Shown: positions 7,230 through 44,427 of the stretch, piece by piece
How the letters are laid out: each line of letters opens with the position of its first letter
Numbering within the stretch: the first letter of the stretch is position 1
Assembly: GCA_965267495.1 (NCBI GenBank)
Contig: OZ254078.1
Location: forward strand, 2,766,145-2,830,144
From: an uncultured Pseudohongiella sp.
GTDB taxonomy: Bacteria > Pseudomonadota > Gammaproteobacteria > Pseudomonadales > Pseudohongiellaceae
Length of the DNA: 64,000 bases
Direction: 5' to 3'
The notes under the pieces: model-generated
What the model was told of the DNA's origin: nothing
Databases searched by the model: none
The model's input: only the letters and a program-made list of their open reading frames with translations
Position numbers and translations under genes: made by a program

Positions 7230-7258
7230 GGATTCTTCTCTCTGGCCTGGGCCGCGGG

Positions 7259-8899: not shown

Positions 8900-8903
8900 T
8901 TGT

Positions 8904-12286: not shown

Positions 12287-12381
12287 GGGTTTTTAACTGC
12301 AGAGTTGAACCCCACAGCTGTAAAACTTGGTTACTTTTTCAGCGTAGACAAAGCCGGGTCCATCAGTTAGCCTCAAAGTGG

Positions 12382-12405
12382 TACGGGATTGCCCGTGGGG
12401 TTTTG
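12382..12405 (+). terminator. Weak terminator-like hairpin after the DapA-family gene
   Basis: ACGGG-ATTG-CCCGT stem-loop followed by GGGGTTTTGTATTT. Confidence 0.3.
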
Positions 12406-12501
12406 TATTTCTCTGATTTCATTGAATAAATTCACAGAGAAAGACGCCCACAGACTCCTGCACAGCGAAACTGAATTCAATTCTTCTCAGTGAGGCGCAA
12501 A

Positions 12502-14520
12502 ATGACAATAAGACTAAATATCCTGCAACGTCTCAGATCCGCCCTAATCGGCGCCTTGGTCTTTGCTTTTTCAGGAAGCTTGCTGGCACAAGACTCCATT
12601 GAGTGGTTCAGCCTTGGCAATGACCTGGGCAACACTCGTTTCACTCCTGCCAGTGAAATTACTTTTGATAACTTCGATGAACTGGAAGTCGCCTGGGAAT
12701 GGGATGGCGCCAGTATGGGTGCGGTCAGTGGCCGATCTACACCGAGCTACATCAACGGCACCTTGTATACCGTAGCCGGACCTCGCCGCCACGTCGTGGC
12801 CATCGATCCCAAGACCGGAGAGACTATCTGGAGCTATCGCCTGCCAAACACCGGCCGCTGGGAATACTCCATGCGTGCCGATTATGGAAAAGGTGTTACC
12901 TATTCTGAAGTAGATGGTCGTGGCGTAATCTATGTGATCACACCTGGCTTCTTCCTGGTTGCCCTGGATGCCAAGACCGGTGAGCCGCTGGATGGTTTCG
13001 GCGCGCCCGTCCCTGTCGATGGTTTCCCGGAAAGTGGCGTGGTAGACCTGCTGGCTGATCTCGGTCACCCCTATGATCCTTATGAAGGTGTGCCACTTGA
13101 AGTGGGCTACATCACCGCTTCATCTCCACCGGTAGTGGTTAATGACACAATCATCGTTGGCAATTCTGCTGAACAGGGTTATCACCAGTCTCGCATCGAG
13201 ATGATTCCTGGCGACATTCTCGCTTATGACAAGTCCACAGGGGACTTCAAGTGGAAGTTCAATGTGATTCCCCGTCCAGGTGAATATGGCCATGAAACCT
13301 GGGAAAACGATGCCTGGGAATGGACCGGAGATGTCTCATCATGGGCACCGATCTCTGCCGACCTGGAAGCTGGCATCGTCTACATTCCAACTAACGGTGC
13401 AACAATCGATTACTACGGTGGTTTCCGTCCTGGCGACAATCTGTACGGCACCAGCCTGATAGCACTCGATGCGGAAACCGGCTCGAGGGTGTGGCACTTC
13501 CAGATGGTCCACCATGATATCTGGAACTATGACAATCCCATGGCTCCGGTACTGCTGGACCTGGATGTACCAGGACAGGGGCAAATACCTGCAGTCATGC
13601 AGGCCACGAAGCAGAGCTTTGTGTATGCGTTTAACCGACTGACTGGTGAACCTATCTGGCCGATCGAAGAACGACCGGTTCCCCAATCCACGGTACCCGG
13701 CGAAGTGCTGTCTCCTACTCAGCCTTTCCCCACCAGACCTGCCCCCTTCGATATCCAGGGTGTGAGCATTGATGACCTGGTGGACTGGACTCCTGAGTTG
13801 CGTCAGCAGGCTATCACAGCCTACGCGGACTACCAGATGGGCCCATTGTTCAACCCCCCTATTCAGCGCGGACATGAGTCAGGCAAACGTGCAGCCATGT
13901 TCTGCCCAGGCGGCGGTGGTGGTGCCAACATCACTTCACCTTCAGTAGCGGATCCCACTACTAATATTCTGTATGTGTCTTCACATACTGCCTGTAGTGC
14001 AGTTCAGCTGGTACCCGGTGAAGAAGCAGACCTGCAATATGAACTGCCAACTGGCGTGACTTATGCGCAGTATGCCAATGGTCCGGGTGCAGGTGCTCCT
14101 CGCCACCCAGCCGGCATTCCGCTCTACAAGCCACCCTATAGCCGAATCACGGCGATCAACATGAACACCGGTGAGCACGAATGGATGATCCCAACAGGTG
14201 AAACTCCAGCGCGCGTGCAACGTGTGATTGATGATATGGGTCTGGATGTGCCCAACACTGGTACCGGCGCACTGGTACCCATGGTGGTAACACCTAACAT
14301 GCTGGTGTATTCAGATACTGCAACTGACGGCACACCGATGCTGTATGCCATCAACAAGGCAACCGGTGAAACTGAAGCGTCAATCGAAGTTCCAGCACGC
14401 AACCGCTATGGTATGAGCAGCTGGGTCCATGATGGACACCAATACATCATGCTGCAAACAGGCTCCAAGCTGACCGCGATGGCCCTGCCAGCGGCACAAG
14501 CGGAAGCTGGCGCGCACTAG
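12502..14520 (+). CDS. PQQ-dependent (quinoprotein) dehydrogenase, secreted
   Basis: Eight-bladed beta-propeller-type sequence with repeated W/G motifs typical of quinoprotein dehydrogenases. Signal peptide MTIRLNILQRLRSALIGALVFAFSGSLLAQD. The ATG at 12502 has GAGG 6 nt upstream; a GTG at 12490 is an alternative start. Confidence 0.75.
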   Translation: MTIRLNILQRLRSALIGALVFAFSGSLLAQDSIEWFSLGNDLGNTRFTPASEITFDNFDELEVAWEWDGASMGAVSGRSTPSYINGTLYTVAGPRRHVVAIDPKTGETIWSYRLPNTGRWEYSMRADYGKGVTYSEVDGRGVIYVITPGFFLVALDAKTGEPLDGFGAPVPVDGFPESGVVDLLADLGHPYDPYEGVPLEVGYITASSPPVVVNDTIIVGNSAEQGYHQSRIEMIPGDILAYDKSTGDFKWKFNVIPRPGEYGHETWENDAWEWTGDVSSWAPISADLEAGIVYIPTNGATIDYYGGFRPGDNLYGTSLIALDAETGSRVWHFQMVHHDIWNYDNPMAPVLLDLDVPGQGQIPAVMQATKQSFVYAFNRLTGEPIWPIEERPVPQSTVPGEVLSPTQPFPTRPAPFDIQGVSIDDLVDWTPELRQQAITAYADYQMGPLFNPPIQRGHESGKRAAMFCPGGGGGANITSPSVADPTTNILYVSSHTACSAVQLVPGEEADLQYELPTGVTYAQYANGPGAGAPRHPAGIPLYKPPYSRITAINMNTGEHEWMIPTGETPARVQRVIDDMGLDVPNTGTGALVPMVVTPNMLVYSDTATDGTPMLYAINKATGETEASIEVPARNRYGMSSWVHDGHQYIMLQTGSKLTAMALPAAQAEAGAH

Positions 14521-16360: not shown

Positions 16361-18847
16361 TTAGATTGTGCGGATTTGGGTATAGTCAGTGTAACCCATC
16401 AGGATTTTCTCAATACCATCCTGCTTGCGGGTACGCATGCCACTTGCAACACCCTCGAAATGAATCTCAGCGGCAGGTGCCTTGCGCAAAATCATCTTCT
16501 TGATATCCGGCGTGCTCATCAGCAGTTCGTGCACACCCATACGACCACGATAGCCAGTGTCGAGACAGGCCGGGCACCCGGGTGCCTTGTAAAGAGTGAA
16601 CTCACCATCATGAGAGAATTCCTCCTTCCACAGCTCCAGCTGTTTCTGCACCGCCTCTTCCGGTGGATCAGAGCGAGTGCCATCCGGAATCCCTTCCCGA
16701 CAATACTCCGTGGCGAGAAACTCTATTTCACTGTCTTCCGGTACATAGGACTTCTTGCAGGAATTACACAGAGTCTTGGTAAGCCGTTGAGACAGAATAC
16801 CAATCATGGCATCGGCGAAGTTGAATGGATCCATATCCATATCCAGCAGCCGCACAATACTCTCGGCGGCACTGTTGGTGTGTAGCGTGGAAAGCACCAG
16901 GTGACCAGTGAGAGAAGCTTCAATTGCTGTGCCAGAAGTTTCATGGTCACGCATCTCACCCACCATAATGATATCCGGGTCAGCGCGGAGAAAAGCGCGC
17001 ATTGCATGGGCGAATGTCATGCCGACTTTCTCGTTAACTTCCACCTGCCTTAAACCGGGCTGGGTGATCTCCACTGGATCTTCTGCAGTCCAGATCTTGC
17101 GCTCATTGTTATTCAGGTAATTGAGGATCGAGTGAAGCGTAGTACTCTTACCGGAACCGGTAGGACCACAAACCAGAAATAGCCCATAAGGTTTCGAAAC
17201 ACCGGCCAGCAAATTGTCCAGGTTGGGTGTGCTCAGACCGATCGCATTGACCGGCATACACTTTCCGCCGGACAGAATCCGGATCACAACGTCTTCGATC
17301 CCACCCTGGGTTGGAATGGTAGCAACACGAAGTTCAATGTCTATTGGCGCAAAATGGCGAAAATTGATCTTGCCATCCTGCGGCCTGTTCTTGTTGGAAA
17401 TGTCCAGGTGAGCCATGACCTTGATTCGGGAAACGAAGACCGAGCGATACTTACTGGGAAATTTATAGTAAGTAGTAAGCACACCGTCTTTACGAAAGCG
17501 CACGATGACTTTTTGCTTGCCCGTGCCCGGCTCAATATGGATGTCTGATACCTTCTGTCGATGACCATCTTCAATGATCTTGTTGACAATCTTTACGACT
17601 ACGTTGTCCGTAACCTGCTGAGTCTCGACTGCGGAAAAGATGGTGGAATCATAGTCATCATCCTCTCCCTCAACTTCCATGTCCTCATCGTATTCCGCGA
17701 TAGTGGATTCGATGTCTTCCGAGGAATAGTAAAACTGCAATGCCCAGTTAATGTCTTCGGGTGAAGCCATTACCGGCTCAACGTACTTGTTGATGGTAAA
17801 ACTCAGTGCATCGGTTACCTGCCAGTCCATTGGGTTCTCGATAGCAACTACAATCTTGCCCTCATAGACGTAGAGAGGCACCACCTTGTGCTTGAATGCT
17901 ATTGCGGCAGTGAGTAGACGAATAACATCTGGCTCGACAGTAAACTCACGCAGGTTTACAAACGGAATGCCTAACTTCTTGGCCAGCGCTTGCTGGATTT
18001 CTTCCTTGGCAATCAAGCCACGATTGACAAGAATCTCACCCAAGGCACCCTTTCGTTTCTTCTTTTGTTCCTTCAGCGCTTCGGTAAGCTGAGCCTCACT
18101 TACCAGGTCTTCGCCAACCAGAATCTCACCAAGTTTCAGGTTGGGCATGTGCTTCTGTCGGGAAAGCGCGTTCTCCAGTTCGGCTGAATCCACAATCTTC
18201 TGCGTGACCAGGTATTCACCCAGTAGCCGTGAACGCTCTTCCTGCTGGTCCTGCAGCGCATCATCCAGGACTTCCTGGGAGATGGCCTTTTCTTCCACCA
18301 GCATCTCACCGATCTGTCCACCAATGATGTGATTATCAACAGCGGCATGGGCAACAAAGAGGTGAGTGCAATAACGCCACTTTCGCCCAACCTTGGTTTG
18401 TTCGTAGAGGTGAATGCCGTTCTTGTCGGTGCGGGTACCGAAGGTATTGCCGGATAGTTCAGACTGGTCCTTGAAGAAGACCTCGAATGATCGGGCATCG
18501 GCATCCATATTGATACCGCCGGGGTTGCTGGAGCCAGCCTGTTTTAACAGCTGATAAGGTTTCTCCAGTCGCATGTATTTAACCGAAGACATTTCCAGCT
18601 CTGTCGGAGTAACCGCATTGGGCTCCATGATGGAGATGGCTTCCGATGAAGCATTGAACTGAAGCAATGTTCCTTTGAGGCGATGGGAGTTAGTGAGCTC
18701 TACGGTGACCGCCGATTTTTCATACTCGGGACCATCGTGAACTTCAGCAAAGGGAGGCGGTTGCAGATCGATCTGATTGGAAGCCGGAATTTCTACCTCG
18801 ACTTCTTCGTCTTCTGCCTCTACTGCGATTGCGGTTTCTGCTTGCAT
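16361..18847 (-). CDS. Orphan GspE/PilB-family secretion ATPase with an extended N-terminus (unknown ~175-aa domain plus four MshEN-type motifs)
   Basis: 828-aa ORF with Walker A GPTGSGKSTT, His box LSTLHTN and a tetracysteine motif (CNSCKKSY...GCPACLDTGYRGR). Residues ~178-291 carry four consecutive ~24-aa xLGExLV...L..AL..Q motifs. No platform, secretin or pilin gene is adjacent. Confidence 0.85.
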   Translation of the reverse strand: MQAETAIAVEAEDEEVEVEIPASNQIDLQPPPFAEVHDGPEYEKSAVTVELTNSHRLKGTLLQFNASSEAISIMEPNAVTPTELEMSSVKYMRLEKPYQLLKQAGSSNPGGINMDADARSFEVFFKDQSELSGNTFGTRTDKNGIHLYEQTKVGRKWRYCTHLFVAHAAVDNHIIGGQIGEMLVEEKAISQEVLDDALQDQQEERSRLLGEYLVTQKIVDSAELENALSRQKHMPNLKLGEILVGEDLVSEAQLTEALKEQKKKRKGALGEILVNRGLIAKEEIQQALAKKLGIPFVNLREFTVEPDVIRLLTAAIAFKHKVVPLYVYEGKIVVAIENPMDWQVTDALSFTINKYVEPVMASPEDINWALQFYYSSEDIESTIAEYDEDMEVEGEDDDYDSTIFSAVETQQVTDNVVVKIVNKIIEDGHRQKVSDIHIEPGTGKQKVIVRFRKDGVLTTYYKFPSKYRSVFVSRIKVMAHLDISNKNRPQDGKINFRHFAPIDIELRVATIPTQGGIEDVVIRILSGGKCMPVNAIGLSTPNLDNLLAGVSKPYGLFLVCGPTGSGKSTTLHSILNYLNNNERKIWTAEDPVEITQPGLRQVEVNEKVGMTFAHAMRAFLRADPDIIMVGEMRDHETSGTAIEASLTGHLVLSTLHTNSAAESIVRLLDMDMDPFNFADAMIGILSQRLTKTLCNSCKKSYVPEDSEIEFLATEYCREGIPDGTRSDPPEEAVQKQLELWKEEFSHDGEFTLYKAPGCPACLDTGYRGRMGVHELLMSTPDIKKMILRKAPAAEIHFEGVASGMRTRKQDGIEKILMGYTDYTQIRTI

Positions 18848-35090: not shown

Positions 35091-35402
<312 letters not shown>

Positions 35403-35670: not shown

Positions 35671-36273
35671 TCACTGCACGCTGACGCCGCGACACAATGT
35701 CTGAAAAGCAAGTTCCGCCAGTTTTTCGTCTGAGTAGCCCTTCACAGTTCTCATTATCCAGGCAGGATAGAGCAAGGCATCAATCGCATTGACCACCCAG
35801 TCTGTGGCCAGGTCTCTGCTTACCGAACCTTCCTTCTTTGCCATCTCGACCAAAGCTCGCATGTCCTCCTGCTGCTCCTCATAGAGTTTCACCAGTTCCA
35901 GATCATCTGGAGCAAAGCTGCTGAGATTAATAATGAACTGCATTTCTTCGGCCAGGGGCACGATCGCATGATAGAACATGCGAATAGCGTCCAGGGCAGA
36001 TTTCGCCTCGTTCTCTATGTGTTCAGTGGCCAGATCAAAGGTCCGCAAGCAATCTTTTGCTATGGCAAGCAGCAATTCCTCCTTGGTCTCAAATGACCTG
36101 TATAAGGTTGCCCTCCCGACGCCGGCATGGCTCGCAATCTCGCTCATACTGGTTTCGTAGTTCTTGTTGAGCAACTGTCTCCCTGCCTGAATCAGTGCCT
36201 TTCGCGACTTTACAACACGGGCATCAGTATTTTGTGCCGCCGGGGAGCTTGAAGAATTCTCAGTTTTTGTCAT
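35671..36273 (-). CDS. TetR/AcrR-family transcriptional regulator
   Basis: N-terminal HTH (SMSEIASHAGVGRATLYRSFETKEELL). The gene is divergent from an MFP-RND operon. The ATG at 36273 is preferred; the GTG at 36279 is the ORF-track start. Confidence 0.85.
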   Translation of the reverse strand: MTKTENSSSSPAAQNTDARVVKSRKALIQAGRQLLNKNYETSMSEIASHAGVGRATLYRSFETKEELLLAIAKDCLRTFDLATEHIENEAKSALDAIRMFYHAIVPLAEEMQFIINLSSFAPDDLELVKLYEEQQEDMRALVEMAKKEGSVSRDLATDWVVNAIDALLYPAWIMRTVKGYSDEKLAELAFQTLCRGVSVQ

Positions 36274-36300
36274 AGCCACCTACTAGATTTATGAAACAGG

Positions 36301-36346
36301 GTTGTATCATAACTTTTAAAGAGATATGATACAACACTGTATCATA
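36301..36346. promoter_or_regulatory. Candidate TetR operator in the divergent promoter region
   Basis: Perfect 11-bp inverted repeat GTTGTATCATA (36301-36311) and TATGATACAAC (36325-36335), plus a third half-site TGTATCATA (36338-36346). Confidence 0.6.
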
Positions 36347-36375
36347 TATTTTGCTAACCGTAAGGAGTTTTTGCT

Positions 36376-37515
36376 GTGAACAGGCCACTGATCCGAAAAG
36401 GAAGACTCCTGTCGATTGTAGCTACGCTTGGATTTTGCGCAGTTCTGATTTGGACAATGAGCGGGCCGAATGAAGACGAGCAAGCAACAGTGAGTCAATC
36501 GCCAGTCTTGTCAGTAACTGTTTTGGAAGCGCGCCCCACCCAGATCACGCTCGGAGTGGAAGCACTCGGACTCAGCCAGGCACGTTGGCCGACTGCGATC
36601 ACAGCATCGGTTTCCGGGCGCGTAGAATTTCTAAACGAACATTTGAATCCCGGGACTTTGCTAAGCGAAGGCACCGTGTTGTTAAAACTTCAAGACGAGT
36701 TGTACCGCGCCGAACTTGCACGATCACACGCACACGTCGCGGAAGCGGAATTGCAACTTGCTCAGATAGAAAACGAACAGTATGTGCTAACAGAACTCAA
36801 GGAATCCACTTCTGCCTTTGGCCGTAGGGAACCCCATGTCAAAGCAGCGCAGGCACAATTATCAGCCCAACAAGCTGGTATCGAAAATGCAGAACAACAG
36901 TTGGCTAACGCGACTATTTCAACGCCTTTCGATGCAATAGTGGTCAGCGAAAGTGTTTCTCCCGGGCAGTGGATCAATGCTGGTGAAGAACTTTTTCGCA
37001 TCGCCTCGAGTGAGTCAGTGGACATCATTATTGAGCTGTCAGCAGATCAATGGCAACGCCTTGGCCCACTTAACAGTCAGCAATCGACAAAAATTATCAC
37101 ACCGGATGGAAAACAATGGGTGGCAAAGATTAGGTACATAAGTCCGGAGCTGAATCCAGTCACACGTCAACGAAGTCTGACTCTCAGTGTCGAGAATCCC
37201 TATTCCCATACAGATCCATTGCTGCCCAATCAACAAGTCCGGGCATTCTTAAAAGGGCGGATGCTCAGCCATGTTGTTGAAGTACCGGCAACTGCACTCA
37301 CAGAAGACGGAAATGTCTGGAGCGTTGGCGAGGGAGTATTGGTTAAGGAATCAATTGAATTACTGGATGAAACGCCGGAATCAGTTCTGTTTCGCTTTCG
37401 ACAGGCACCGGAACGCGCACGTACCCTGGTGCGCTTTCCAACGAGCAGCATGTTGAGTGGTCAGCGCGTAACTGAACGGATTGATACCTACAAGTCAGGA
37501 GAACAACGCTTGTGA
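36376..37515 (+). CDS. RND efflux periplasmic adaptor (HlyD/MFP family)
   Basis: 379 aa with an N-terminal TM anchor and coiled-coil hairpin (ELARSHAHVAEAELQLAQIENEQ...AQAQLSAQQAGIENAEQQL), then beta-barrel regions. It starts at GTG with AAGGAG 8 nt upstream. Its stop overlaps the RND gene start. Confidence 0.85.
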   Translation: MNRPLIRKGRLLSIVATLGFCAVLIWTMSGPNEDEQATVSQSPVLSVTVLEARPTQITLGVEALGLSQARWPTAITASVSGRVEFLNEHLNPGTLLSEGTVLLKLQDELYRAELARSHAHVAEAELQLAQIENEQYVLTELKESTSAFGRREPHVKAAQAQLSAQQAGIENAEQQLANATISTPFDAIVVSESVSPGQWINAGEELFRIASSESVDIIIELSADQWQRLGPLNSQQSTKIITPDGKQWVAKIRYISPELNPVTRQRSLTLSVENPYSHTDPLLPNQQVRAFLKGRMLSHVVEVPATALTEDGNVWSVGEGVLVKESIELLDETPESVLFRFRQAPERARTLVRFPTSSMLSGQRVTERIDTYKSGEQRL

Positions 37516-40500
37516 AATTCATAACCCGATGGTTTCTGGATAATCCCGTAGCGGCAAACTTAGTGATGGCATTCATTCTTGTCGCCGGCTTACTCACATA
37601 CAACACGCTTCGGGTCGAGAGCTTTCCACAGATTCCAGCGACCCAGCTAACAATTTCCGTATCTTATCCGGGAGGTACTCCGCGGCAGGTCGACGAGGGA
37701 ATTACACAACGTATTGAGGATGCCATTAGTGGGGTGCCTGGCATACATAGCATCCGCAGTGAGTCCTGGCGTGGTTCAGCCAATATTACTGTGAAGAAAA
37801 ATACCGGCATTGATCTCGACAGATTAATGGAGGACGTGCGAAACGAAGTGGAGAGTATTGTCGGCTTTCCCGACGCGGCAGAACGACCGCGTATTTTTCG
37901 GGATGAATATGGAAATCTTGCAGCATTTGTCATTGTCTACGGCGGACAAGACAGGGACCTGTTGCAAACAGTTTCCACACGAGTCGAGACGGCGTTAAAA
38001 AAGCACCCCGAGATTTCGAAAGTTTTGAATTGGGGCAAGCGCCAAAAGCAACTGCTGATCGAACCAAGAGCCGAAGCTCTGCAGCGCTATGGTTTGGATA
38101 TGGAGAACCTTGCCAATCGAATTCACCAGTGGTCACTGGAGACTCGTAGTGGGGAGTTAAAGACTGCCAGAGGCACAATTACTCTGAGTGGCAGCCAGTA
38201 TGCGGACGACCTGCTGGCGCTTGAACGTCTCCCCATCATCAACAATGCCCAGACCAGCGTGCGCTTGAGAGATGTTGCTGATATCCGACGCACATTCCAG
38301 GAAGACGAATCACTGGTGCGCTACAACGATGCCAACGCAGTCACGCTTATGGTGAACACCAGCCAAAAAGACCACTTGATGCGAATCAGTGCAGCCATAG
38401 ATGAAGTAATCGCGGAGATGGAACCTACATTGCCAGACGACATGAAGATCGCAGTTATGGCTGACATGGCACCTTATATAACAGAACAGCTGGATTTACT
38501 GGGTACTAATGCGTGGCAAGGCCTTATCATCGTGTTGATTGTATTAGGCATCTTTCTGGAGATTCGACTCGCATTCTGGGTCGCACTTGGAATTCCGATC
38601 TCTGTCGCAGGTGCACTGTCACTGATGGGTTTGCCTGCCCTTGACTATAGTATTAATGACATCACCCTGTTCGGCATGATTCTGGTCCTGGGCATACTGG
38701 TTGATGACGCAGTTGTTGTTGGAGAGGCAATTCACAGCGCGAGACAAAACACTAAGGACCCGAAGGAGGCAGCATGGCGCGGCGTAGAATCAGTAGCCAT
38801 TGCGACCGTATTTGGCGTTCTAACTACGATCGCGGCATTTTCGCCCATGCTGTGGATAGAAAACGAGCTGGCGAAAGTCCTTGCTGGCTTTTCCGCTGTA
38901 GTGATCTTCGCGCTGATCTTCTCCCTGATCGAAAGTAAATTCATATTGCCGACCCATTTAGCGATGGAATATCGCGACAGTTCGACCACCAACTCCTTTA
39001 CCAGGCTACTGCTGAGCATTCGCCATCTCTGCAATTCCGCATTGGAACGATTCAGCAGAAAAGTCTATCAACCCACTTTGCAAAAGGCGCTCAACAACAA
39101 ATGGACCGCCTTGATGGTATTTAGCAGCGTCATGCTTTTCAGCTATGGCGCCCTCAACAAAGGGCTGATCTCCTCCACCTTTTTTCCTGAAATTCCAGGT
39201 CGTTTTGCGACCGTCCAAGTTGACATGGATCAGGACGCAGCCAGATCCCTGACCTTGCGTAACGCAGATCAACTTGAAACTGCAATCGCAGTAAGCAATC
39301 GAATACTGGCTGATGAGTATCAATTGCCAGACGCTCCGATAGAGAGATACATCGTTGCAATGACTGGCCCACTCAGTATTGAACTAACCGCCGAGCTAAG
39401 CGAAAACGCCTTGGCAGAAATTCCAAGTGCCCGCTTCCTCGACACATGGAGAGAGGCTACTGGACAGCTTGAGGGGAGTTACGCGGTGAGTTATCGATTG
39501 GCTGAAGAAGTGGCGGGTGGCACAGCAATCACCGTTGCTGCCAATGATCGTGCGCTGGCACGCCAGGTTGCTGCAGAAGTGAGGCAAGAACTCGATCAGC
39601 TCCCTGGTGTTAATGACGTTTACGACGATAGTCAGAGCGGGAAACGCCAGCTGAACATAAACTTGAATGAACGAGGCATCCGGCTGGGTATTGACCAACG
39701 GCAATTGGCCACTTTGGTCGGTGGCGCCTTCGGTAATTTTGAGATTCATCGACTACTGGACGATTCTCAGGAAATGCTGGTTCAGGTAAAGCTCCCGGAA
39801 GATGACGCGCGAACTCTTGAACAGCTCAAAAATACCGCTGTTCGCATTCCCCAAGGGGGTTATGTCAGTTTGGGAGAAATCAGCCACTTCACCCATAGTC
39901 GTGAGCCGGAAGTTTTATATCGGCGCAACCGCAATGAAGTGGTGACAGTTTACTGGAACCAGGACCGCAGCATCAGTTCACCCGAGGCGATCTGGCAACG
40001 ACTGTCCGATCAGGCAATTCCAGATCTGAACGCCAAATATCCTGGGGTCATCATTGAAGCGGTAGGTGAATTCGATGAAATTGGTGAAGTCCAAACCGGA
40101 TTCAGAAAAGCCATGATCCTGACGCTACTGTTAATCTATGTGTTACTTGCTGTCCCGCTGCAATCCTATTGGCAGCCATTCGTGATCATGTCGGTAATTC
40201 CCTTCGGCTTCGCCGGCGCAATACTTGGTCACGGATTGATGGATTTGTCGTTTAGCCTGCTATCAATGTTTGGCCTGATGGCGATGACGGGTGTGGTGAT
40301 TAACGACTCCCTGGTATTAATGACACGCTTTAATCAACTGTTAAGAGAAGGCTTTCCAGTAAGCGAGGCCCTGGTCGAAGCAGGCAAGAGTCGATTGCGC
40401 GCAATCTTTCTGACAACAGTGACCACTGTATGTGGACTGCTGCCACTACTGAGTGAAACGTCGGAGCAAGCTCAGTATCTCAAGCCCGCAGCTGTTTCGC

Positions 40501-40640
40501 TGGTCTTTGGAGAATTGTTCGCCACTCCAATCACTCTGGTGTTGATTCCGTTGCTGCTATCGTTCGGTAAATACCAGCATAAAAAGAAAAACAGCAAAGA
40601 AACTGACAGTCCGATAACTGGCATGGCTTCACCAGCTTGA
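37512..40640 (+). CDS. RND-family efflux permease (AcrB/AcrD/AcrF superfamily)
   Basis: 1042 aa with a 12-TM architecture and two large periplasmic loops. The N-terminus is typical (FITRWFLDNPVAANLVMAFILVAGL). Confidence 0.9.
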   Translation: MKFITRWFLDNPVAANLVMAFILVAGLLTYNTLRVESFPQIPATQLTISVSYPGGTPRQVDEGITQRIEDAISGVPGIHSIRSESWRGSANITVKKNTGIDLDRLMEDVRNEVESIVGFPDAAERPRIFRDEYGNLAAFVIVYGGQDRDLLQTVSTRVETALKKHPEISKVLNWGKRQKQLLIEPRAEALQRYGLDMENLANRIHQWSLETRSGELKTARGTITLSGSQYADDLLALERLPIINNAQTSVRLRDVADIRRTFQEDESLVRYNDANAVTLMVNTSQKDHLMRISAAIDEVIAEMEPTLPDDMKIAVMADMAPYITEQLDLLGTNAWQGLIIVLIVLGIFLEIRLAFWVALGIPISVAGALSLMGLPALDYSINDITLFGMILVLGILVDDAVVVGEAIHSARQNTKDPKEAAWRGVESVAIATVFGVLTTIAAFSPMLWIENELAKVLAGFSAVVIFALIFSLIESKFILPTHLAMEYRDSSTTNSFTRLLLSIRHLCNSALERFSRKVYQPTLQKALNNKWTALMVFSSVMLFSYGALNKGLISSTFFPEIPGRFATVQVDMDQDAARSLTLRNADQLETAIAVSNRILADEYQLPDAPIERYIVAMTGPLSIELTAELSENALAEIPSARFLDTWREATGQLEGSYAVSYRLAEEVAGGTAITVAANDRALARQVAAEVRQELDQLPGVNDVYDDSQSGKRQLNINLNERGIRLGIDQRQLATLVGGAFGNFEIHRLLDDSQEMLVQVKLPEDDARTLEQLKNTAVRIPQGGYVSLGEISHFTHSREPEVLYRRNRNEVVTVYWNQDRSISSPEAIWQRLSDQAIPDLNAKYPGVIIEAVGEFDEIGEVQTGFRKAMILTLLLIYVLLAVPLQSYWQPFVIMSVIPFGFAGAILGHGLMDLSFSLLSMFGLMAMTGVVINDSLVLMTRFNQLLREGFPVSEALVEAGKSRLRAIFLTTVTTVCGLLPLLSETSEQAQYLKPAAVSLVFGELFATPITLVLIPLLLSFGKYQHKKKNSKETDSPITGMASPA

Positions 40641-40780
40641 ATGCGGCTGTTTGAGTAAGATTTTAAGCGGATAGGTTTCGGCATCGCAGGCATTCAGTCC
40701 ATCCATGGACATAAGCCTGGTTCCGGAATCCTATAATCGCCACGCCCTGAGCGGGCAAAACACGATGAGTGCAGACTCTT

Positions 40781-42115
40781 CTAGTCCGAGCCGCTCTGGC
40801 GCTGTGCCAACCTGGCATTCCGCTCTGCCAGCATCCTCTCATAGTCTTCCTGACCAAGATAAGTGACATCGACCCAGTTGTGCGCCATCTCATCCACGGT
40901 GCGATCACCCCAACCAACCCACTGATTGGGGTCAGGATTATTGGGATTGTTCGCTGTGTTGTCATGCCATGCACGGGTTATGAGCATGGTACCAGCGGGC
41001 ACAATCGGCGCGGCGTCTTCACCAAACACGTAGTTGATTTGCCAGTTCCACTGAAAGTTGTCGACAAAAGCGAGCACTTCCCGGTTGCCATTGGGAAAGA
41101 TGGCTTCCATGGACATGGCCTTGCCACGCATATGCATATGAGGCTGGAAGTTTTCTATTCGCGCGGGAGCCGAAAGCACAAAGGTGCCTTGAGTCACTGC
41201 AATCTCATTAGGAGGAATATCCAGACTATGTGGGCCCTGGGCGTCCAACATACTGAGAATGGTTCGATGGGCAGGCTGCTCGTCATGAAACCAGACGCCA
41301 ATTTCCACCTGTGCATCTGGCACTCTTTCCCCCATGGCATGCAAATGCACTTCCCACATAATTTGCGAGCCAGGCAACATCAATTTGCCTGAATCTGGCC
41401 GAAAGATCTGTCCCGCTTTTCCAACCGCCCATTCCATAAACAGACTTGGGCCGAATGGAATATCAACATCCGTTGGCAGTCCTTTTCTTTCAGTATCATT
41501 CTGAATCAGGAAAGCCAAAGCATGATGCACCACGCGACGGCTTGCATCGTCAACTGGCCGAATCTCGATTGCCTTGACCCATTTTTCTTCCGTCAGACCA
41601 GTTTCCACCATGGGGCGGAACCACTTGTCCTGAGTGACAGCCGCCAAATCGAAAGGCTCGGATTTCAACATCAGATCTGGCGCCGAACCCATTTGCTCTT
41701 CGAGGCGCCAGACCAGTTCGTCGTTGAACTCCACTGGAGATGGCGCGTTTCGCATATTCCCCTGGGGTGCTCCCTGGTCCACCCAATCGATTATCGTCTG
41801 GCGCTCGCTCTGGGTCAGGCCCCGATCATTGACGAACTCCTGAATGCCAACCTGGGGATTAAGATGCCAGGGTGGCATGACCCGGTTTTCCACTCGATAT
41901 TTGATGACTGGCGCAAAGGGTCGTACCTGGTCATAGGTCTGCAACGCCATCGGCGCAATTGAGTTTGGTCGATGACACTCCATACACTTCTGCTGAAAAA
42001 TCGGCATGACATCTTCAGCCCAGGTGAGCTCTTCCTGTGCGACTGACATTGCCGGTACCAGCAGAGCAACGACCGCCAATACAAGCTGCAAAGTGTCTTT
42101 CTTGAGAATTTTCAT
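40781..42115 (-). CDS. Secreted fusion of a mono-heme cytochrome c domain and a PHM/DBH-type copper monooxygenase-like core
   Basis: Start at ATG 42115 with a GGAG 9 nt upstream. Signal peptide MKILKKDTLQLVLAVVALLVPAMSVAQE. Heme motif CMECH (codons at 41972-41986). It also carries VVHHALAF, WEVHLHAMG, QPHMHMRGKAM and RTVDEMAH, which match the copper type II ascorbate-dependent monooxygenase signatures HHM..F and H.H..G and the DEM(C) methionine ligand. Confidence 0.7.
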   Translation of the reverse strand: MKILKKDTLQLVLAVVALLVPAMSVAQEELTWAEDVMPIFQQKCMECHRPNSIAPMALQTYDQVRPFAPVIKYRVENRVMPPWHLNPQVGIQEFVNDRGLTQSERQTIIDWVDQGAPQGNMRNAPSPVEFNDELVWRLEEQMGSAPDLMLKSEPFDLAAVTQDKWFRPMVETGLTEEKWVKAIEIRPVDDASRRVVHHALAFLIQNDTERKGLPTDVDIPFGPSLFMEWAVGKAGQIFRPDSGKLMLPGSQIMWEVHLHAMGERVPDAQVEIGVWFHDEQPAHRTILSMLDAQGPHSLDIPPNEIAVTQGTFVLSAPARIENFQPHMHMRGKAMSMEAIFPNGNREVLAFVDNFQWNWQINYVFGEDAAPIVPAGTMLITRAWHDNTANNPNNPDPNQWVGWGDRTVDEMAHNWVDVTYLGQEDYERMLAERNARLAQRQSGSD

Positions 42116-42170
42116 TTGAATAGTCTCCTTCAGAAGGATAGACATCCTTCTTAGCTAAGTTTCTTGTGCA

Positions 42171-43058
42171 TTAACGAACGTTTACCTTTAAAAAACCATT
42201 TGTCCAACAGCACTGCGAATGACCTGACATTTCGGGTCCAGAGAATTCTGTAACCCGCGCTCGCAGAACGTACTCTCCCGGTTGCGAAAAAGTAGCCTCT
42301 GTTGTGGCGACTCCCCCTTCGACCGGAACTTTGTTGTTTGTCTCACTGAATTCTACTGAGCCTGGACCTCTGTGCTTAAACCAGTCCACATTCATTGGCG
42401 GGGTAGCACCTCCTTGCGCCAGAAACAATGAGGCGAGCCCGCTGCCCTTGCCATCATCTTGTGCCCAGGCATTGACAGTGACTGCCCGACCAGCTCTTGC
42501 ATCAATCGGTCCTTCTGTTATGCCGGCAGGTCCATGACCCCAGACACTTTCTTCGCTAAAACGAACCTCAGGCGGAAAATTGCCGCCTGCATCACCAACA
42601 ATGGCGTCGATAATAAAATCTGTATGCTTGTTTGCTGGTATATGGAAGGTTCTGCCCTGATTCTCCAGATGCCAGACAATTTCACCGTCATGATCGGCAG
42701 GTACTTTTACTGTGAATACACCCCAGTGGCGCTCAACGGAAAAGTGAGTGGGCTGTCCCTGGTCAGGATTTCCATCAGGCGCACCTATAATGCGGTTGGC
42801 TGGTCCAACCGGTATATCCAGCTTTTCTTCGGTATTGCGATTGTAGTAACCAAATGAGTAGGCAACCATGCCATCATCGTCTACATACCAACCTTCATAA
42901 GCAGGCGTCACTGTTTGGCCTGAGCTTATGCCGATGTCCTTGCCCAGCGGCAGGGATTCAACCGCCAGGGGAACTCCCTGGGCAACGACCAGATTTGCTG
43001 TCAGCAGACAAACGCCAAGCAGCAAGGAATTCACCATAGAGAAAACTGACTTCTTCAT
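42171..43058 (-). CDS. Secreted hypothetical protein, probably co-transcribed with the heme/copper protein
   Basis: Start at ATG 43058 with GGAGG upstream. Signal peptide MKKSVFSMVNSLLLGVCLLTANLVVAQG. The sequence looks beta-rich and has no recognised motif. The gap to the downstream gene is 55 nt with no terminator. Confidence 0.6.
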   Translation of the reverse strand: MKKSVFSMVNSLLLGVCLLTANLVVAQGVPLAVESLPLGKDIGISSGQTVTPAYEGWYVDDDGMVAYSFGYYNRNTEEKLDIPVGPANRIIGAPDGNPDQGQPTHFSVERHWGVFTVKVPADHDGEIVWHLENQGRTFHIPANKHTDFIIDAIVGDAGGNFPPEVRFSEESVWGHGPAGITEGPIDARAGRAVTVNAWAQDDGKGSGLASLFLAQGGATPPMNVDWFKHRGPGSVEFSETNNKVPVEGGVATTEATFSQPGEYVLRARVTEFSGPEMSGHSQCCWTNGFLKVNVR

Positions 43059-43182
43059 TTGACCTCCGGAATTCGAAGTTGAGATTCTGCCGTACAGCAT
43101 CGTCGAATAGTGTGACGTTACCGAGTGTAACACTTGCCGCTGGTCTCTGAGAATCCATTTTCATTCGCTGTTAGACCAGCAT

Positions 43183-43216
43183 AAAAAAGGCCAGCTTGGA
43201 AAATCCAAGCTGGCCT
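43183..43216 (-). terminator. Rho-independent terminator after tufA (end of the str operon)
   Basis: On the minus strand: GGCCAGCTTGG-attttc-CCAAGCTGGCC followed by TTTTTT. Confidence 0.85.
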
Positions 43217-43236: not shown

Positions 43237-44427
43237 TTACTCAATGATCTTGGAAACTACGCCAGCTCCAACAGTTCGACCACCCTCACGAATCGCGAAA
43301 CGAAGGCCCTCGTCCATCGCAATCGGTGCAATCAGATCAACTGTCATCTTGATGTTGTCACCAGGCATCACCATCTCAGTGCCTTCAGGCAGCTCAACGT
43401 TGCCAGTCACGTCCGTAGTACGGAAGTAGAACTGGGGACGATAGCCCTTGAAGAAAGGGGTATGACGACCACCCTCATCCTTGCTCAGAATATACACTTC
43501 ACACTCGAACTTGGTGTGTGGCGTAATTGAACCAGGTGCAGCCAGTACCTGACCACGCTCAACTTCCTCACGCTTGGTACCACGCAGAAGTACACCCACG
43601 TTCTCACCAGCTCGGCCTTCGTCCAGCAGCTTGCGGAACATCTCAACACCAGTACAGGTAGTCTTCTCAGTGTCCTTGATGCCGACAATCTCGATCTCTT
43701 CACCAACCTTGATCACACCGCGCTCAACACGACCAGTCACTACCGTGCCGCGACCAGAGATGGAGAACACGTCTTCGATTGGCATCAGGAATGGCTTTTC
43801 TACATCACGCTCAGGCTCAGGAATGTAATCATCCAGTGTCTCAACCAGCTTCTGTACCGCAGGGGCACCGATGTCAGAGTCGTCACCTTCCAGGGCTTTC
43901 AACGCAGAACCAATAATGATCGGTGTATCGTCACCAGGAAATTCGTACTGATCCAGCAGCTCACGGATTTCCATCTCAACCAGTTCCAGCAGCTCCGCAT
44001 CGTCTACCATGTCCGCCTTGTTCATGAACACAACGATGTAAGGAACACCTACCTGACGGGACAGCAGGATGTGCTCTCGAGTCTGGGGCATGGGGCCATC
44101 AGCCGCACTCACCACCAGGATCGCACCGTCCATCTGCGCAGCACCGGTGATCATGTTCTTCACATAGTCAGCGTGGCCCGGGCAGTCTACGTGAGCGTAG
44201 TGACGGTTCGGGGAATCGTATTCAACGTGAGACGTCGCGATGGTAATACCACGCTCTTTCTCTTCAGGGGCGTTATCGATTTCATCGAAATTCTTCAGAT
44301 CGCCACCATAAGCTTCCGCACACACCTTCGTCAGTGCTGCTGTCAACGTCGTCTTACCGTGGTCTACGTGACCAATCGTTCCTACGTTAACGTGGACTTT
44401 CGTTCTTTCAAATTTTTCCTTAGACAC
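43237..44427 (-). CDS. tufA: Elongation factor Tu (copy A, str operon)
   Basis: 396 aa with [17 protein letters not shown] and NKADM motifs. It starts at GTG (44425-44427) and follows fusA. Confidence 0.97.

What the first reader, a model, noticed from the sequence alone, without database searches (positions are those of the whole stretch)
40781..43058. Two-gene periplasmic module with a c-type heme domain fused to a PHM/DBH-type binuclear copper monooxygenase core
- **Heme domain:** the 444-aa protein (40781-42115) has a signal peptide and a single CMECH heme-binding site, followed by a conserved RVMPPWH stretch.
- **Copper core:** further on it carries the hallmark ligand sets of copper type II ascorbate-dependent monooxygenases. 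These are HH in VVHHALAF (compare the HHM..F signature), a further His pair in WEVHLHAMG, H.H..G in QPHMHMRGKAM (compare H-T-H-x2-G), and the DEM methionine in RTVDEMAH (compare DEMC).
- **Why it matters:** in animal PHM/DBH enzymes, soluble ascorbate reduces the two coppers. A covalently fused heme c domain suggests a bacterial solution in which a built-in cytochrome delivers the electrons.
- **Context:** an uncharacterised secreted beta-rich protein (42171-43058) lies 55 nt upstream with no terminator between the two genes, so they are probably co-transcribed. I know of no characterised bacterial member with this architecture. Its substrate is open.
Basis: partly seen in the sequence, partly recalled or inferred. 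Interest (0 to 1): 0.72.

Follow-up and report, generated by a model that had tools for sequence, protein, structure and literature searches.

The report
Bacterial heme-fused PHM-like copper enzyme pair
Two co-transcribed genes encode a secreted bacterial relative of the animal copper enzymes that make noradrenaline and amidated peptide hormones, here fused to its own cytochrome c and always paired with a small cysteine-bearing partner; the family is very large, uncharacterised, and common in marine and soil bacteria.

Summary

- **Enzyme (40781-42115, minus strand, 444 aa):** signal peptide, one heme c site (C44-x-x-C47-H48, invariant M80), then a two-domain PHM/DBH-type copper core.
- **Homology to PHM/DBH:** Pfam misses the window protein. 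A profile of 50 homologues hits human DBH (E=2.6e-10) and rat PHM (E=1.3e-8) with all six copper ligands in register. A confident AlphaFold2 model (pLDDT 90.8) retrieves only DBH/PHM as its top 31 PDB matches.
- **Ligands:** H197/H198/H257 (CuH) and H326/H328/M410 (CuM) are essentially invariant across 150 superfamily representatives. H259 is not. PHM's peptide-anchoring residues are absent.
- **Partner (42171-43058, 295 aa):** sits directly upstream in 79 of 79 testable genomes from three phyla. It is fused to the enzyme in many Acidobacteriota proteins, so it is a bound subunit. It carries an invariant H-x-Q-C-C-W-x-N motif.
- **Context in other genomes:** 28 of 80 loci, and all three fused-form loci examined, have a PQQ alcohol-type dehydrogenase nearby, in eight loci with a small cytochrome c next to it. 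This suggests an electron-supply chain.
- **Open:** substrate, chemistry and the role of the Cys-Cys motif are inferred or unknown. I found no characterised bacterial member.

The parts
42171..43058 (-). Partner gene (295 aa): secreted two-domain beta-rich subunit
   Evidence: ORF and translation. 4791 homologues. Directly upstream of the enzyme gene on the same strand in 79 of 80 loci; the one exception has no contig upstream. Fused to the enzyme in other lineages.
42981..43058 (-). Partner signal peptide (aa 1-26, cleavage after VVA, mature N-terminus Q27)
   Evidence: Read from the sequence. A26 is nearly invariant and Q27 invariant in alignment A2.
42198..42224 (-). Partner motif G-H-S-Q-C-C-W-T-N (aa 279-287), holding the only two cysteines of the mature protein
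   Evidence: Q282, C283, C284, W285 and N287 are invariant and H280 is at least 90% conserved in 34 sequences. CCW is present in 118 of 120 partner homologues and in 115 of 116 partner-enzyme fusions.
43063..43067 (-). GGAGG ribosome-binding site of the partner gene
   Evidence: Read from the sequence.
42116..42170 (-). 55-nt intergenic spacer with no terminator; holds AGGAG (42125-42129) for the enzyme gene
   Evidence: Sequence. The fold is not different from shuffles (z = -0.86) and there is no U-run.
40781..42115 (-). Enzyme gene (444 aa): signal peptide, mono-heme c domain, PHM/DBH-type two-copper core, C-terminal helix
42038..42115 (-). Enzyme Sec signal peptide (aa 1-26, cleavage after SVA)
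   Evidence: Read from the sequence. This region has low pLDDT in the model.
41741..42037 (-). Heme c domain (aa 27-125), three-helix cytochrome c-like
   Evidence: Weak Haem_bd, Cytochrome_CBB3 and PccH hits. 46 of 50 family members hit Cytochrome_CBB3. The family profile hits the hydrazine synthase alpha heme domain 5c2v (E=1e-4) and PccH 4rlr. Helices 32-43, 61-76 and 102-113 in the model.
41972..41986 (-). CMECH heme-attachment site (C44, C47, H48)
   Evidence: Invariant in 131 of 131 aligned representatives.
41867..41878 (-). MPPW motif; M80 is the candidate distal heme ligand
   Evidence: M80 is invariant in 137 of 137 aligned representatives. Its role as a ligand is inferred.
41240..41683 (-). 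N-terminal beta-sandwich of the copper core (about aa 145-292) carrying the CuH ligands H197, H198 (41522-41527) and H257 (41345-41347)
   Evidence: These align with PHM H107, H108 and H172. Conserved in 137/138, 135/137 and 135/136 aligned representatives. Beta strands in the model.
40856..41224 (-). C-terminal beta-sandwich of the copper core (about aa 298-420) carrying the CuM ligands H326, H328 (41132-41140) and M410 (40886-40888)
   Evidence: These align with PHM H242, H244 and M314. Conserved in 134/134, 133/134 and 126/127 aligned representatives. PF03712 hits over this region in relatives.
40790..40852 (-). C-terminal amphipathic helix (aa 422-442)
   Evidence: Helix 422-442 in the model. 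Function unknown.
43183..43216 (-). Intrinsic terminator of tuf, marking the upstream boundary of the two-gene unit
   Evidence: 13-bp perfect stem followed by U6; -30.7 kcal/mol, z = -6.6, and none of 200 shuffles folds as well.
12490..14520 (+). Candidate companion, unlinked in this genome: soluble PQQ-dependent dehydrogenase
   Evidence: PF01011 E=8e-159. 68% identical to the PQQ dehydrogenase next to the module in L012. Any connection to the module in this genome is an inference from other genomes.

Best explanation
**What it is:** a two-subunit periplasmic metalloenzyme.

**Large subunit.** It is exported by a Sec signal peptide. It carries one covalently bound heme c (C44-x-x-C47-H48, probably with M80 as the sixth ligand). 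The heme domain is joined to a PHM/DBH-type catalytic core of two beta-sandwiches. The first sandwich holds the electron-transfer copper CuH (H197, H198, H257). The second holds the oxygen-activating copper CuM (H326, H328, M410).

**Small subunit.** It is a secreted two-domain beta-rich protein that stays bound to the enzyme. It contributes an invariant His/Cys-Cys/Trp site whose role is open: a third copper site, a redox-active vicinal dithiol/disulfide, or a structural element.

**Proposed mechanism (inferred).**
1. Periplasmic c-type cytochromes reduce the fused heme.
2. The heme passes two electrons, one at a time, to CuH and on to CuM. This replaces the ascorbate and cytochrome b561 supply used by the animal enzymes.
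3. CuM binds O2 and hydroxylates a C-H bond of a substrate that is still unknown.

**Substrate.** It is not a glycine-extended peptide, because PHM's carboxylate and backbone anchors are absent.

**Electron source.** In many genomes the electrons probably come from a neighbouring PQQ alcohol-type dehydrogenase and its cytochrome c.

**Shown here:** gene structure, heme motif, PHM/DBH fold, ligand set and its invariance, obligate pairing and fusion with the partner, and the recurrent PQQ-dehydrogenase neighbourhood.

**Inferred:** copper occupancy, direction of electron flow, monooxygenase chemistry, and the role of the partner's motif.
For: - **Homology to PHM/DBH:** the family profile hits DBH at E=2.6e-10 and PHM at E=1.3e-8 over both sub-domains, with VHH, H, PHxH..G and DEM in register.
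- **Fold:** the model has pLDDT 90.8 and pTM 0.86. Its top 31 Foldseek hits are all DBH or PHM, followed by a gap of about seven orders of magnitude in E-value.
- **Ligands:** the heme and copper ligands are conserved in 126/127 to 137/137 aligned positions across 150 representatives of a superfamily with 13,785 clusters at 50% identity.
- **Pfam on relatives:** 27 of 50 members hit PF03712 and 8 of 50 hit PF01082.
- **Partner adjacency:** 79 of 79 testable loci in Gammaproteobacteria, Gemmatimonadota and Acidobacteriota.
- **Fusions in three topologies:** the partner-then-enzyme form occurs in at least 120 clusters at 90% identity from many samples. Of 116 full-length fusions, 115 keep CCW and 103 have exactly four cysteines.
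- **PQQ dehydrogenase nearby:** present within 5 kb in 28 of 80 loci. In ten it lies within about 170 nt downstream of the enzyme's matched region; 13 copies are divergent upstream. A small cytochrome c lies next to it in eight loci. A cytochrome-c-fused PQQ dehydrogenase lies upstream in all three fused-form loci examined.
- **Type of dehydrogenase:** the closest solved relatives of both types are quinohemoprotein and PQQ alcohol or sorbose dehydrogenases. From established knowledge, enzymes of that class donate electrons to c-type cytochromes.
Against: - No biochemical data exist for any member.
- Pfam's PHM/DBH models do not match the window protein itself.
The RMSD to PHM is about 7 Å over about 300 columns, so the orientation of the domains may differ.
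- The PQQ dehydrogenase is absent from most module neighbourhoods. In this window it lies 26 kb away.
- Many superfamily members carry AhpC/TSA-redoxin domains. That could point to peroxide or thiol chemistry rather than O2-dependent hydroxylation.
- PHM's five-disulfide framework (as I recall it) and its substrate anchors are absent.
Confidence: 0.6

Rival explanations
1. The protein is a periplasmic oxidase or peroxidase, not a monooxygenase. Electrons arriving from cytochromes c at the heme are used at the copper sites to reduce O2, superoxide or H2O2. This would serve as an electron sink for quinoprotein dehydrogenases or as an oxidative-stress defence, with no organic substrate being hydroxylated.
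For: Many superfamily members are fused to AhpC/TSA-redoxin (peroxiredoxin-like) domains. The companions are dehydrogenases that need an electron acceptor. No substrate-binding residues can be identified, and the PHM substrate anchors are missing.
Against: The complete PHM-type ligand set, including the CuM methionine, is invariant. From established knowledge of PHM and DBH, that arrangement is tuned for substrate-coupled O2 activation, and reduced PHM does not react with O2 without substrate (PMC9064607 abstract). The window subfamily has no redoxin domain. From established knowledge, respiratory oxidases would be a more economical electron sink.
Confidence: 0.13
2. The enzyme is a protein-modifying maturase and the partner is its substrate. 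The PHM-like core would hydroxylate or cross-link the invariant Cys-Cys-Trp site to build a protein-derived cofactor, comparable to cysteine tryptophylquinone. The modified partner would then be the functional product.
For: PHM itself acts on peptide chains (established knowledge). The partner's only invariant cluster is H-x-Q-C-C-W-x-N. The genes are strictly paired one to one. Known Trp-quinone cofactors are made by dedicated heme or flavin maturases encoded next to their targets (established knowledge; not tested here).
Against: The partner-like domains are fused to the enzyme in both orders, and in P0257, P0258 and P0253 they lack the Cys-Cys motif altogether. The partner scaffold is therefore retained even where there is nothing to modify. 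A permanently fused substrate allows only one turnover, which is hard to reconcile with an elaborate electron-supply chain.
Confidence: 0.1
3. The partner is a transient copper chaperone or 'caddie' that loads the two copper sites in the periplasm and then dissociates. The comparison is MelC1, encoded upstream of Streptomyces tyrosinase. The His plus two Cys would form a Sco-like Cu(I) site.
For: His280, Cys283 and Cys284 form a plausible Cu(I) ligand set, and Trp285 could cap it (inference from the motif). The upstream-small-gene arrangement resembles melC1-melC2 (recalled from memory). No catalytic domain is detectable in the partner.
Against: Stable fusions are abundant and occur in three topologies. 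This argues for a permanent subunit. Fused relatives without the Cys-Cys motif keep the scaffold.
Confidence: 0.1
4. The protein is a non-catalytic copper- and heme-binding protein, for example for copper buffering, sensing or electron shuttling, that merely retains a PHM-like fold.
For: There are no activity data, and the genomic context varies widely.
Against: Both complete ligand sets are essentially invariant over thousands of divergent sequences. The orthologue group is 51-65% identical across phyla. Both observations indicate strong selection on a precise two-site geometry, which is not expected for a buffer protein.
Confidence: 0.04

Closest known systems
Peptidylglycine alpha-hydroxylating monooxygenase (PHM, catalytic core of PAM; PDB 1phm, 1opm, 1sdw)
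   Same: Same two-beta-sandwich fold (Foldseek E about 1e-12, TM 0.54-0.67 on PHM length). Same ligand sets in the same order and with similar spacing: HH + H for CuH and HxH + M for CuM. The PHxHxxG and DEM motifs are shared.
   Different: - Bacterial and periplasmic.
- Has a fused N-terminal heme c domain and an obligate partner subunit.
- Has no cysteines outside CXXCH, so it lacks PHM's disulfides.
- PHM's substrate anchors R240, N316 and Y318 are Q324, H412 and W414 here, and those positions vary across the superfamily.
- Sequence identity is about 15-17%, and the protein scores below the Pfam thresholds.
- The reductant is presumably a cytochrome rather than ascorbate.
Dopamine beta-hydroxylase (human DBH, PDB 4zel), tyramine beta-hydroxylase and MOXD1
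   Same: Best sequence-profile hit (E=2.6e-10) and best structural hit (E=2.1e-13). Both are multidomain enzymes in which the copper core is joined to extra beta-rich domains (DOMON in DBH).
   Different: No DOMON domain or dimerisation domain is detectable. The accessory beta-rich domains are on a separate polypeptide (the partner), and no relationship between the partner and DOMON was found. The heme c domain has no counterpart in DBH.
Redoxin (AhpC/TSA)-cytochrome c-Cu2_monoox_C multidomain proteins of bacteria (uncharacterised; for example P0243, P0284, P0296, P0335, P0388)
   Same: Same superfamily: 30-37% identity over the heme and copper core, with all ligands conserved.
   Different: They carry an N-terminal thiol-disulfide oxidoreductase domain and often further domains. 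I did not check them for a partner gene. The window subfamily lacks the redoxin domain and has the Cys-Cys partner instead.
Copper monooxygenases fed by dehydrogenase/cytochrome partners: fungal LPMOs with cellobiose dehydrogenase or the AA12 PQQ pyranose dehydrogenase, and the proposed pMMO-methanol dehydrogenase coupling (recalled from memory; analogy only)
   Same: The functional logic may be shared: a PQQ or flavin dehydrogenase passes electrons through a cytochrome domain to an extracytoplasmic copper oxygenase. Here PQQ dehydrogenases, with cytochrome c, recur next to the module.
   Different: The copper domains have unrelated folds (LPMO histidine brace, CuMMO). The heme is c-type and is fused to the oxygenase rather than only to the dehydrogenase. 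No experiment links the components here.
Cytochrome c-fused copper nitrite reductases (recalled from memory; analogy only)
   Same: A periplasmic copper enzyme with a tethered c-type heme as a built-in electron donor.
   Different: NirK has a cupredoxin fold with type 1 and type 2 coppers. It is unrelated to the PHM fold and does different chemistry.

Membership tests
Copper type II ascorbate-dependent monooxygenases (PHM/DBH/TBH; Pfam PF01082 + PF03712) | Catalytic core made of two beta-sandwich sub-domains | tested here: met
   The AlphaFold2 model (pLDDT 90.8) has DBH or PHM as all of its top 31 Foldseek PDB hits (E 2e-13 to 1e-9, TM 0.54-0.67 on target length).
Copper type II ascorbate-dependent monooxygenases (PHM/DBH/TBH; Pfam PF01082 + PF03712) | CuH site: an HH pair plus a third His about 60-65 residues later | tested here: met
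   H197, H198 and H257 align with PHM H107, H108 and H172 and are conserved in 135-137 of 136-138 aligned representatives.
Copper type II ascorbate-dependent monooxygenases (PHM/DBH/TBH; Pfam PF01082 + PF03712) | CuM site: HxH plus a Met in a D-E-M motif | tested here: met
   H326, H328 and M410 align with PHM H242, H244 and M314 and are conserved in 134/134, 133/134 and 126/127 aligned representatives.
Copper type II ascorbate-dependent monooxygenases (PHM/DBH/TBH; Pfam PF01082 + PF03712) | Score above the Pfam gathering threshold for PF01082 or PF03712 | tested here: not met
   The window protein has no hit even at E<=10. Relatives are mostly below threshold: 27 of 50 hit PF03712 at E<=0.1 (best 3.3e-7) and 8 of 50 hit PF01082 (best 5.5e-3).
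Copper type II ascorbate-dependent monooxygenases (PHM/DBH/TBH; Pfam PF01082 + PF03712) | Significant profile-to-sequence similarity to solved family members across both sub-domains | tested here: met
   The A1 profile hits 4zel at E=2.6e-10 and 1opm/1phm at E=1.3e-8, aligning profile positions 142-406 to PHM residues 17-280.
Copper type II ascorbate-dependent monooxygenases (PHM/DBH/TBH; Pfam PF01082 + PF03712) | PHM-type substrate anchors (R240, N316, Y318) for a peptidyl-glycine carboxylate | tested here: not met
   The equivalent residues are Q324, H412 and W414 (register). They vary across the superfamily, and Arg is not among the six commonest residues at the R240 position.
Copper type II ascorbate-dependent monooxygenases (PHM/DBH/TBH; Pfam PF01082 + PF03712) | Conserved intradomain disulfides of the animal enzymes | tested here: not met
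   The protein has only two cysteines, both in CXXCH.
Copper type II ascorbate-dependent monooxygenases (PHM/DBH/TBH; Pfam PF01082 + PF03712) | Two mononuclear coppers about 11 Å apart across a solvent cleft | not testable with these tools
   Model coordinates are not exposed and the prediction does not include metals.
Copper type II ascorbate-dependent monooxygenases (PHM/DBH/TBH; Pfam PF01082 + PF03712) | Ascorbate-dependent, O2-dependent C-H hydroxylation | not testable with these tools
   This needs biochemistry. The fused heme c suggests a different reductant.
Mono-heme c-type cytochrome domain | A CXXCH motif in an exported protein | tested here: met
   C44-M-E-C47-H48 follows a Sec signal peptide and is invariant in 131 of 131 aligned representatives.
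Mono-heme c-type cytochrome domain | A distal axial ligand (Met or His) downstream of CXXCH | tested here: inconclusive
   M80 in MPPW is invariant in 137 of 137 aligned representatives, but its ligation to the heme cannot be shown here.
Mono-heme c-type cytochrome domain | A match to a curated cytochrome c model above threshold | tested here: not met
   Haem_bd scores 18.4 bits against a cut-off of 27, and Cytochrome_CBB3 14.4 against 27. 46 of 50 relatives hit Cytochrome_CBB3 at E<=0.1. The family profile hits the 5c2v heme domain at E=1e-4.
PKD/Ig-like beta-sandwich proteins (for the partner) | A match to PKD or bacterial Ig-like models | tested here: inconclusive
   23 of 34 partner homologues give weak PKD hits (best E=8.5e-4), all below threshold. 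The window partner gives none. The partner profile has no PDB sequence hit.
Quinoprotein dehydrogenase / cytochrome c / oxygenase gene cluster (hypothetical system) | A PQQ dehydrogenase encoded next to the module | tested here: not met
   In the window the nearest PQQ dehydrogenase (12490-14520) is 26 kb away. The feature is met in 28 of 80 related loci and in all three fused-form loci examined.

The most novel reading that the evidence does not exclude
The module would be the oxygenase half of a self-contained periplasmic 'hydroxylate, then dehydrogenate' loop:
1. The heme-fused copper monooxygenase, with its Cys-Cys partner, hydroxylates a C-H bond.
2. A PQQ dehydrogenase oxidises the alcohol that is formed.
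3. The two electrons released return through c-type cytochromes to the fused heme.

O2-dependent C-H activation would then need no NAD(P)H, ascorbate or membrane quinol. This is the coupling long proposed, but never settled, for pMMO and methanol dehydrogenase. In this reading the partner's His/Cys-Cys/Trp site is a third redox or copper centre on the electron path.
Probability: 0.18. Interest if true: 0.88.

Novelty: new variant of a known kind. Interest (0 to 1): 0.72.

Why it matters
- **The family is treated as eukaryote-only.** PHM and DBH are textbook animal enzymes, and a 2020 metalloproteome review lists them among the cuproproteins of eukaryotes only (PMC7435645).
- **There is a very large bacterial branch.** I found 13,785 clusters at 50% identity. 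The window's orthologue group alone occurs in at least 596 species-level genomes of abundant marine bacteria (Pseudohongiella, OM182, SAR86) and soil bacteria (Gemmatimonadota, Acidobacteriota). None is characterised.
- **The architecture is new.** The copper core is fused to a covalently bound heme c and is locked to a Cys-Cys-bearing partner.
- **If it is an oxygenase, three things follow.** It would add a new class of periplasmic C-H-activating enzymes to marine and soil carbon turnover. It would show how bacteria replace ascorbate with a cytochrome. It would also give enzymologists a PHM-type enzyme with a built-in spectroscopic electron donor, which makes the long-debated CuH-to-CuM electron transfer directly measurable.
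- **It matters for annotation.** These genes are currently labelled 'cytochrome c' or 'hypothetical'.

Tried and rejected
- **Single-sequence AlphaFold2:** pLDDT 35, useless. It cost one of the two structure jobs, so the partner and the complex could not be modelled.
- **Pfam and NCBIfam on the window proteins:** no PHM/DBH hit and no NCBIfam family.
- **phmmer of the window protein against PDB sequences:** nothing significant. Only the family profile worked.
- **The search for related loci with the diverse alignment A1:** I repeated it with the single protein.
- **Partner profile against PDB and Pfam:** no relative found beyond weak Ig/PKD hints.
- **Seven literature searches and two papers read:** no characterised bacterial member, and no mention of bacterial homologues in a 2025 PHM review.
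- **Exact look-up of P0001:** Its nearest named relatives are Pseudohongiella.
- **Search for a shared tuf/rpsJ/RND context in 90 related loci:** none found, so the window's placement tells us nothing about function.
- **Terminator-like site inside the partner gene (42569-42589):** considered and rejected. Four sites were found in the region against 3.2 expected from shuffles, so it is consistent with chance.
- **Antisense ORFs at 40769-41392, 41522-41962 and 42459-42857:** treated as shadows of the real genes.
- **H259 as a copper ligand:** rejected because it is not conserved.

Full report
**1. The observation**

Two ORFs lie head to tail on the minus strand.
- The partner gene is 42171-43058 (295 aa from the ATG at 43058, preceded by GGAGG).
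- The enzyme gene is 40781-42115 (444 aa from the ATG at 42115, preceded by AGGAG).
- Identical gene products are on record in public collections, from one 3.86-Mb contig (P0001, P0121).
- A 13-bp perfect stem followed by U6 (43183-43216; -30.7 kcal/mol, z = -6.6) terminates tuf just upstream.
- The 55-nt spacer between the two genes has no significant structure (z = -0.86) and no U-run.

The pair is therefore its own transcription unit and is very probably co-transcribed.

**2. Is the copper core really PHM/DBH-like?**

- Pfam gives only weak heme-domain hits, nothing for PF01082 or PF03712, and NCBIfam gives nothing.
- phmmer against PDB sequences gives nothing.

This turns out to be a sensitivity problem.
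- The protein belongs to a very large superfamily: 13,785 clusters at 50% identity with E<=1e-3, and 1,474 with E<=1e-30.
- Six of ten divergent members give consistently placed sub-threshold PF03712 hits. Of the 50 sequences in alignment A1, 27 hit PF03712 (best E 3.3e-7) and 8 hit PF01082.
- A profile built from A1 hits human DBH (4zel, E=2.6e-10) and rat PHM (1opm, 1phm and others, E=1.3e-8). The alignment spans both sub-domains, profile positions 142-406 against PHM residues 17-280.
- In that alignment vHHalvf pairs with VHHMLLF, lHyh with VHYG, PHmHlrGk with VHTHHLGK, and deM with DEMC.
- With A1 as input, AlphaFold2 (no templates) gives pLDDT 90.8 and pTM 0.86.
- Foldseek against the PDB returns DBH or PHM for all of the top 31 hits (E 2e-13 to 1e-9, TM 0.54-0.67 on PHM length). 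It then drops to viral jelly rolls at E about 1e-5 and TM about 0.2.
- The PDB holds no bacterial member.

**3. Ligands**

| Site | Residues | Conservation |
|---|---|---|
| Heme attachment | C44, C47, H48 | invariant in A1; 131/131 each across the 150 representatives |
| Candidate distal heme ligand | M80 | invariant in A1; 137/137 |
| CuH | H197, H198, H257 | invariant in A1; 137/138, 135/137, 135/136 |
| CuM | H326, H328 | invariant in A1; 134/134, 133/134 |
| CuM | M410 | at least 90% in A1; 126/127 |

- The residues equivalent to PHM's peptidyl-glycine anchors R240, N316 and Y318 are Q324, H412 and W414 here. They vary across the superfamily, so the substrate is not a glycine-extended peptide.
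- The protein has no cysteine outside CXXCH, so the disulfides of the animal enzymes are absent.
- The heme domain resembles the C-terminal heme domain of hydrazine synthase alpha (5c2v, E=1e-4) and PccH (4rlr) at profile level.

**4. The partner**

- It has thousands of homologues, none with a Pfam domain. Its profile has no PDB sequence relative. Only weak PKD/Ig-like hits appear, in 23 of 34 members.
- It is highly conserved, with an invariant C-terminal Q-C-C-W-x-N preceded by a nearly invariant His. The mature N-terminal Gln is also invariant.
- The two adjacent cysteines are the only ones in the mature protein.

*Adjacency*
- In 80 loci from named genomes (Pseudohongiella and other Pseudomonadales, SAR86, Gemmatimonadota, Acidobacteriota; at least 596 genomes matched), the partner lies directly upstream on the same strand in 79. 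The exception has only 36 nt of contig upstream.
- I checked orthology by hand for Gemmatimonadales, Vicinamibacterales and an unclassified bacterium: 51-65% identity, all ligands intact, and gene spacing from a 4-nt overlap to a 28-nt gap.
- The flanking genes differ everywhere.

*Fusions*
- P0245 is signal peptide, then partner (with HCCWTN), then a linker, then the enzyme without a second signal peptide.
- P0257 and P0258 are enzyme followed by partner-like domains, without the Cys-Cys motif.
- P0253 has the enzyme inserted between the partner's two domains.
- The P0245 architecture recurs in at least 120 clusters at 90% identity, 680-700 aa long, from many samples.
- Of 116 full-length fusions, 115 keep CCWxN and 103 have exactly four cysteines, meaning CC plus CXXCH.

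I conclude that the partner is a permanently associated subunit. Its Cys-Cys pair is either a vicinal disulfide or a metal- or redox-active dithiol acting in cis. The data do not settle which.

**5. A recurrent third component**

- Clustering all flanking ORFs showed one further recurrent family, a soluble PQQ-dependent dehydrogenase (PF01011, E 1e-155 to 1e-178). It scores below the cut-off of every named NCBIfam subfamily.
- It is present in 28 of 80 loci, in all three phyla.

| Arrangement | Copies (32 in 28 loci) |
|---|---|
| Same strand, starting within about 170 nt of the end of the enzyme's matched region | 10 |
| Divergent, upstream of the partner | 13 |
| Same strand, further downstream (about 1-3 kb) | 6 |
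| Same strand, upstream of the partner | 3 |

- A small cytochrome c lies next to the dehydrogenase in eight loci.
- All three fused-form loci I examined carry a different, cytochrome-c-fused PQQ dehydrogenase upstream on the same strand, preceded by a CHRD-domain protein.
- The nearest solved relatives of both types are quinohemoprotein and PQQ alcohol or sorbose dehydrogenases. From established knowledge, enzymes of that class donate electrons to c-type cytochromes.
- The window has a 68%-identical copy at 12490-14520, but it lies 26 kb away, behind a DHDPS-family gene.
- The association is therefore frequent but not obligatory. I could not compute a rigorous background rate. My rough estimate, assuming about ten paralogues in a 5-Mb genome, is an enrichment of more than tenfold.

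**6. Mechanism**

*Shown:* an exported mono-heme c domain joined to a PHM/DBH-type two-site copper core, an obligate Cys-Cys partner, and a frequent PQQ-dehydrogenase and cytochrome c neighbourhood.

*Inferred:*
- Periplasmic cytochromes reduce the fused heme.
- The heme reduces CuH.
- CuH reduces CuM.
- CuM activates O2 and hydroxylates an unknown, non-peptidylglycine substrate.

*Alternatives I cannot exclude:*
- an oxidase or peroxidase role, suggested by the AhpC/TSA-redoxin fusions elsewhere in the superfamily;
- a maturase acting on the partner's CCW site;
- a chaperone role for the partner.

**7. Comparison and novelty**

- The protein works like, and is homologous to, PHM and DBH.
- It passes the fold, ligand and profile-similarity tests. 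It fails the curated Pfam thresholds, the substrate-anchor test and the disulfide test.
- I therefore file it as a distant bacterial branch of that superfamily, not as a PHM or a DBH.
- Seven full-text searches found no characterised bacterial member.
- A 2025 PHM review does not mention bacterial homologues. A 2020 review tabulates PHM and DBM under eukaryotes only.
- Domain databases probably already tag some distant members with PF03712 (best E 3.3e-7). So the bare domain relationship is not entirely new, although the window's subfamily escapes it.
- What I believe is new: the recognition of a heme-c-fused core with an obligate Cys-Cys partner that is sometimes fused to it, its scale and ecological spread, and the PQQ-dehydrogenase link.

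**Verdict:** a new variant of a known kind, interest 0.72.

Noticed in passing
window 35671-43133: The two-gene module, a TetR regulator (35671-36279, minus strand) and an MFP + RND efflux pair (36376-40640, plus strand) form an insert of about 7.8 kb between rpsJ (35091-35402) and tuf (43237-44427). As I recall, those two genes are adjacent in most Gammaproteobacteria. None of 90 related loci shares this placement, which suggests an island-like acquisition or a rearrangement.
   Followed up: partly
window 11375-14520: A DHDPS-family gene (11375-12286) is followed by a soluble PQQ-dependent dehydrogenase (12490-14520). The dehydrogenase is 68% identical to the one encoded next to the module in a related Gammaproteobacteria MAG (L012).
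   Followed up: partly
P0243, P0284, P0296, P0335, P0366, P0388, P0267 (superfamily representatives): Other branches of the superfamily fuse the heme + copper core to N-terminal AhpC/TSA-redoxin domains. Some also carry a BlaR1-type M56 peptidase plus CBM48, EF-hands, or a GDSL lipase. This points to diverse, unexplored functions and perhaps thiol-based electron supply.
   Followed up: partly
P0245 and P0391-P0509; loci L091-L093: In Vicinamibacterales-type soil bacteria the partner and the enzyme are one polypeptide of 680-700 aa. These loci have a CHRD-domain protein and a cytochrome-c-fused PQQ dehydrogenase upstream on the same strand.
   Followed up: yes
L013:6346-7332, L014:2951-3946, L016:6181-7266: In Pseudohongiella and related Pseudomonadales loci, a conserved secreted protein of about 330 aa with no assigned family lies between the enzyme gene and the PQQ dehydrogenase.
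   Followed up: no
L007:1604-5954, L008:1-993: In Vicinamibacterales a PAS/GAF histidine kinase and a sigma-54 activator lie directly upstream of the partner gene on the same strand, so the module may be sigma-54 regulated there.
   Followed up: no
window 5271-10457 and 16361-18847: Genes of MSHA or type II secretion pilus type: a TPR protein, a secretin (7259-9025), an AAA_22 ATPase (8904-10457) and an MshE-type ATPase with an MshEN domain (16361-18847).
   Followed up: no
L012 and L032 (both from MAG D1-CHI-14): One Gammaproteobacteria MAG carries two copies of the module on different contigs, 82% and 90% identical to the window enzyme. This fits the non-adjacent locus tags seen for P0009 and P0128, so paralogous modules exist within a single genome.
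   Followed up: no
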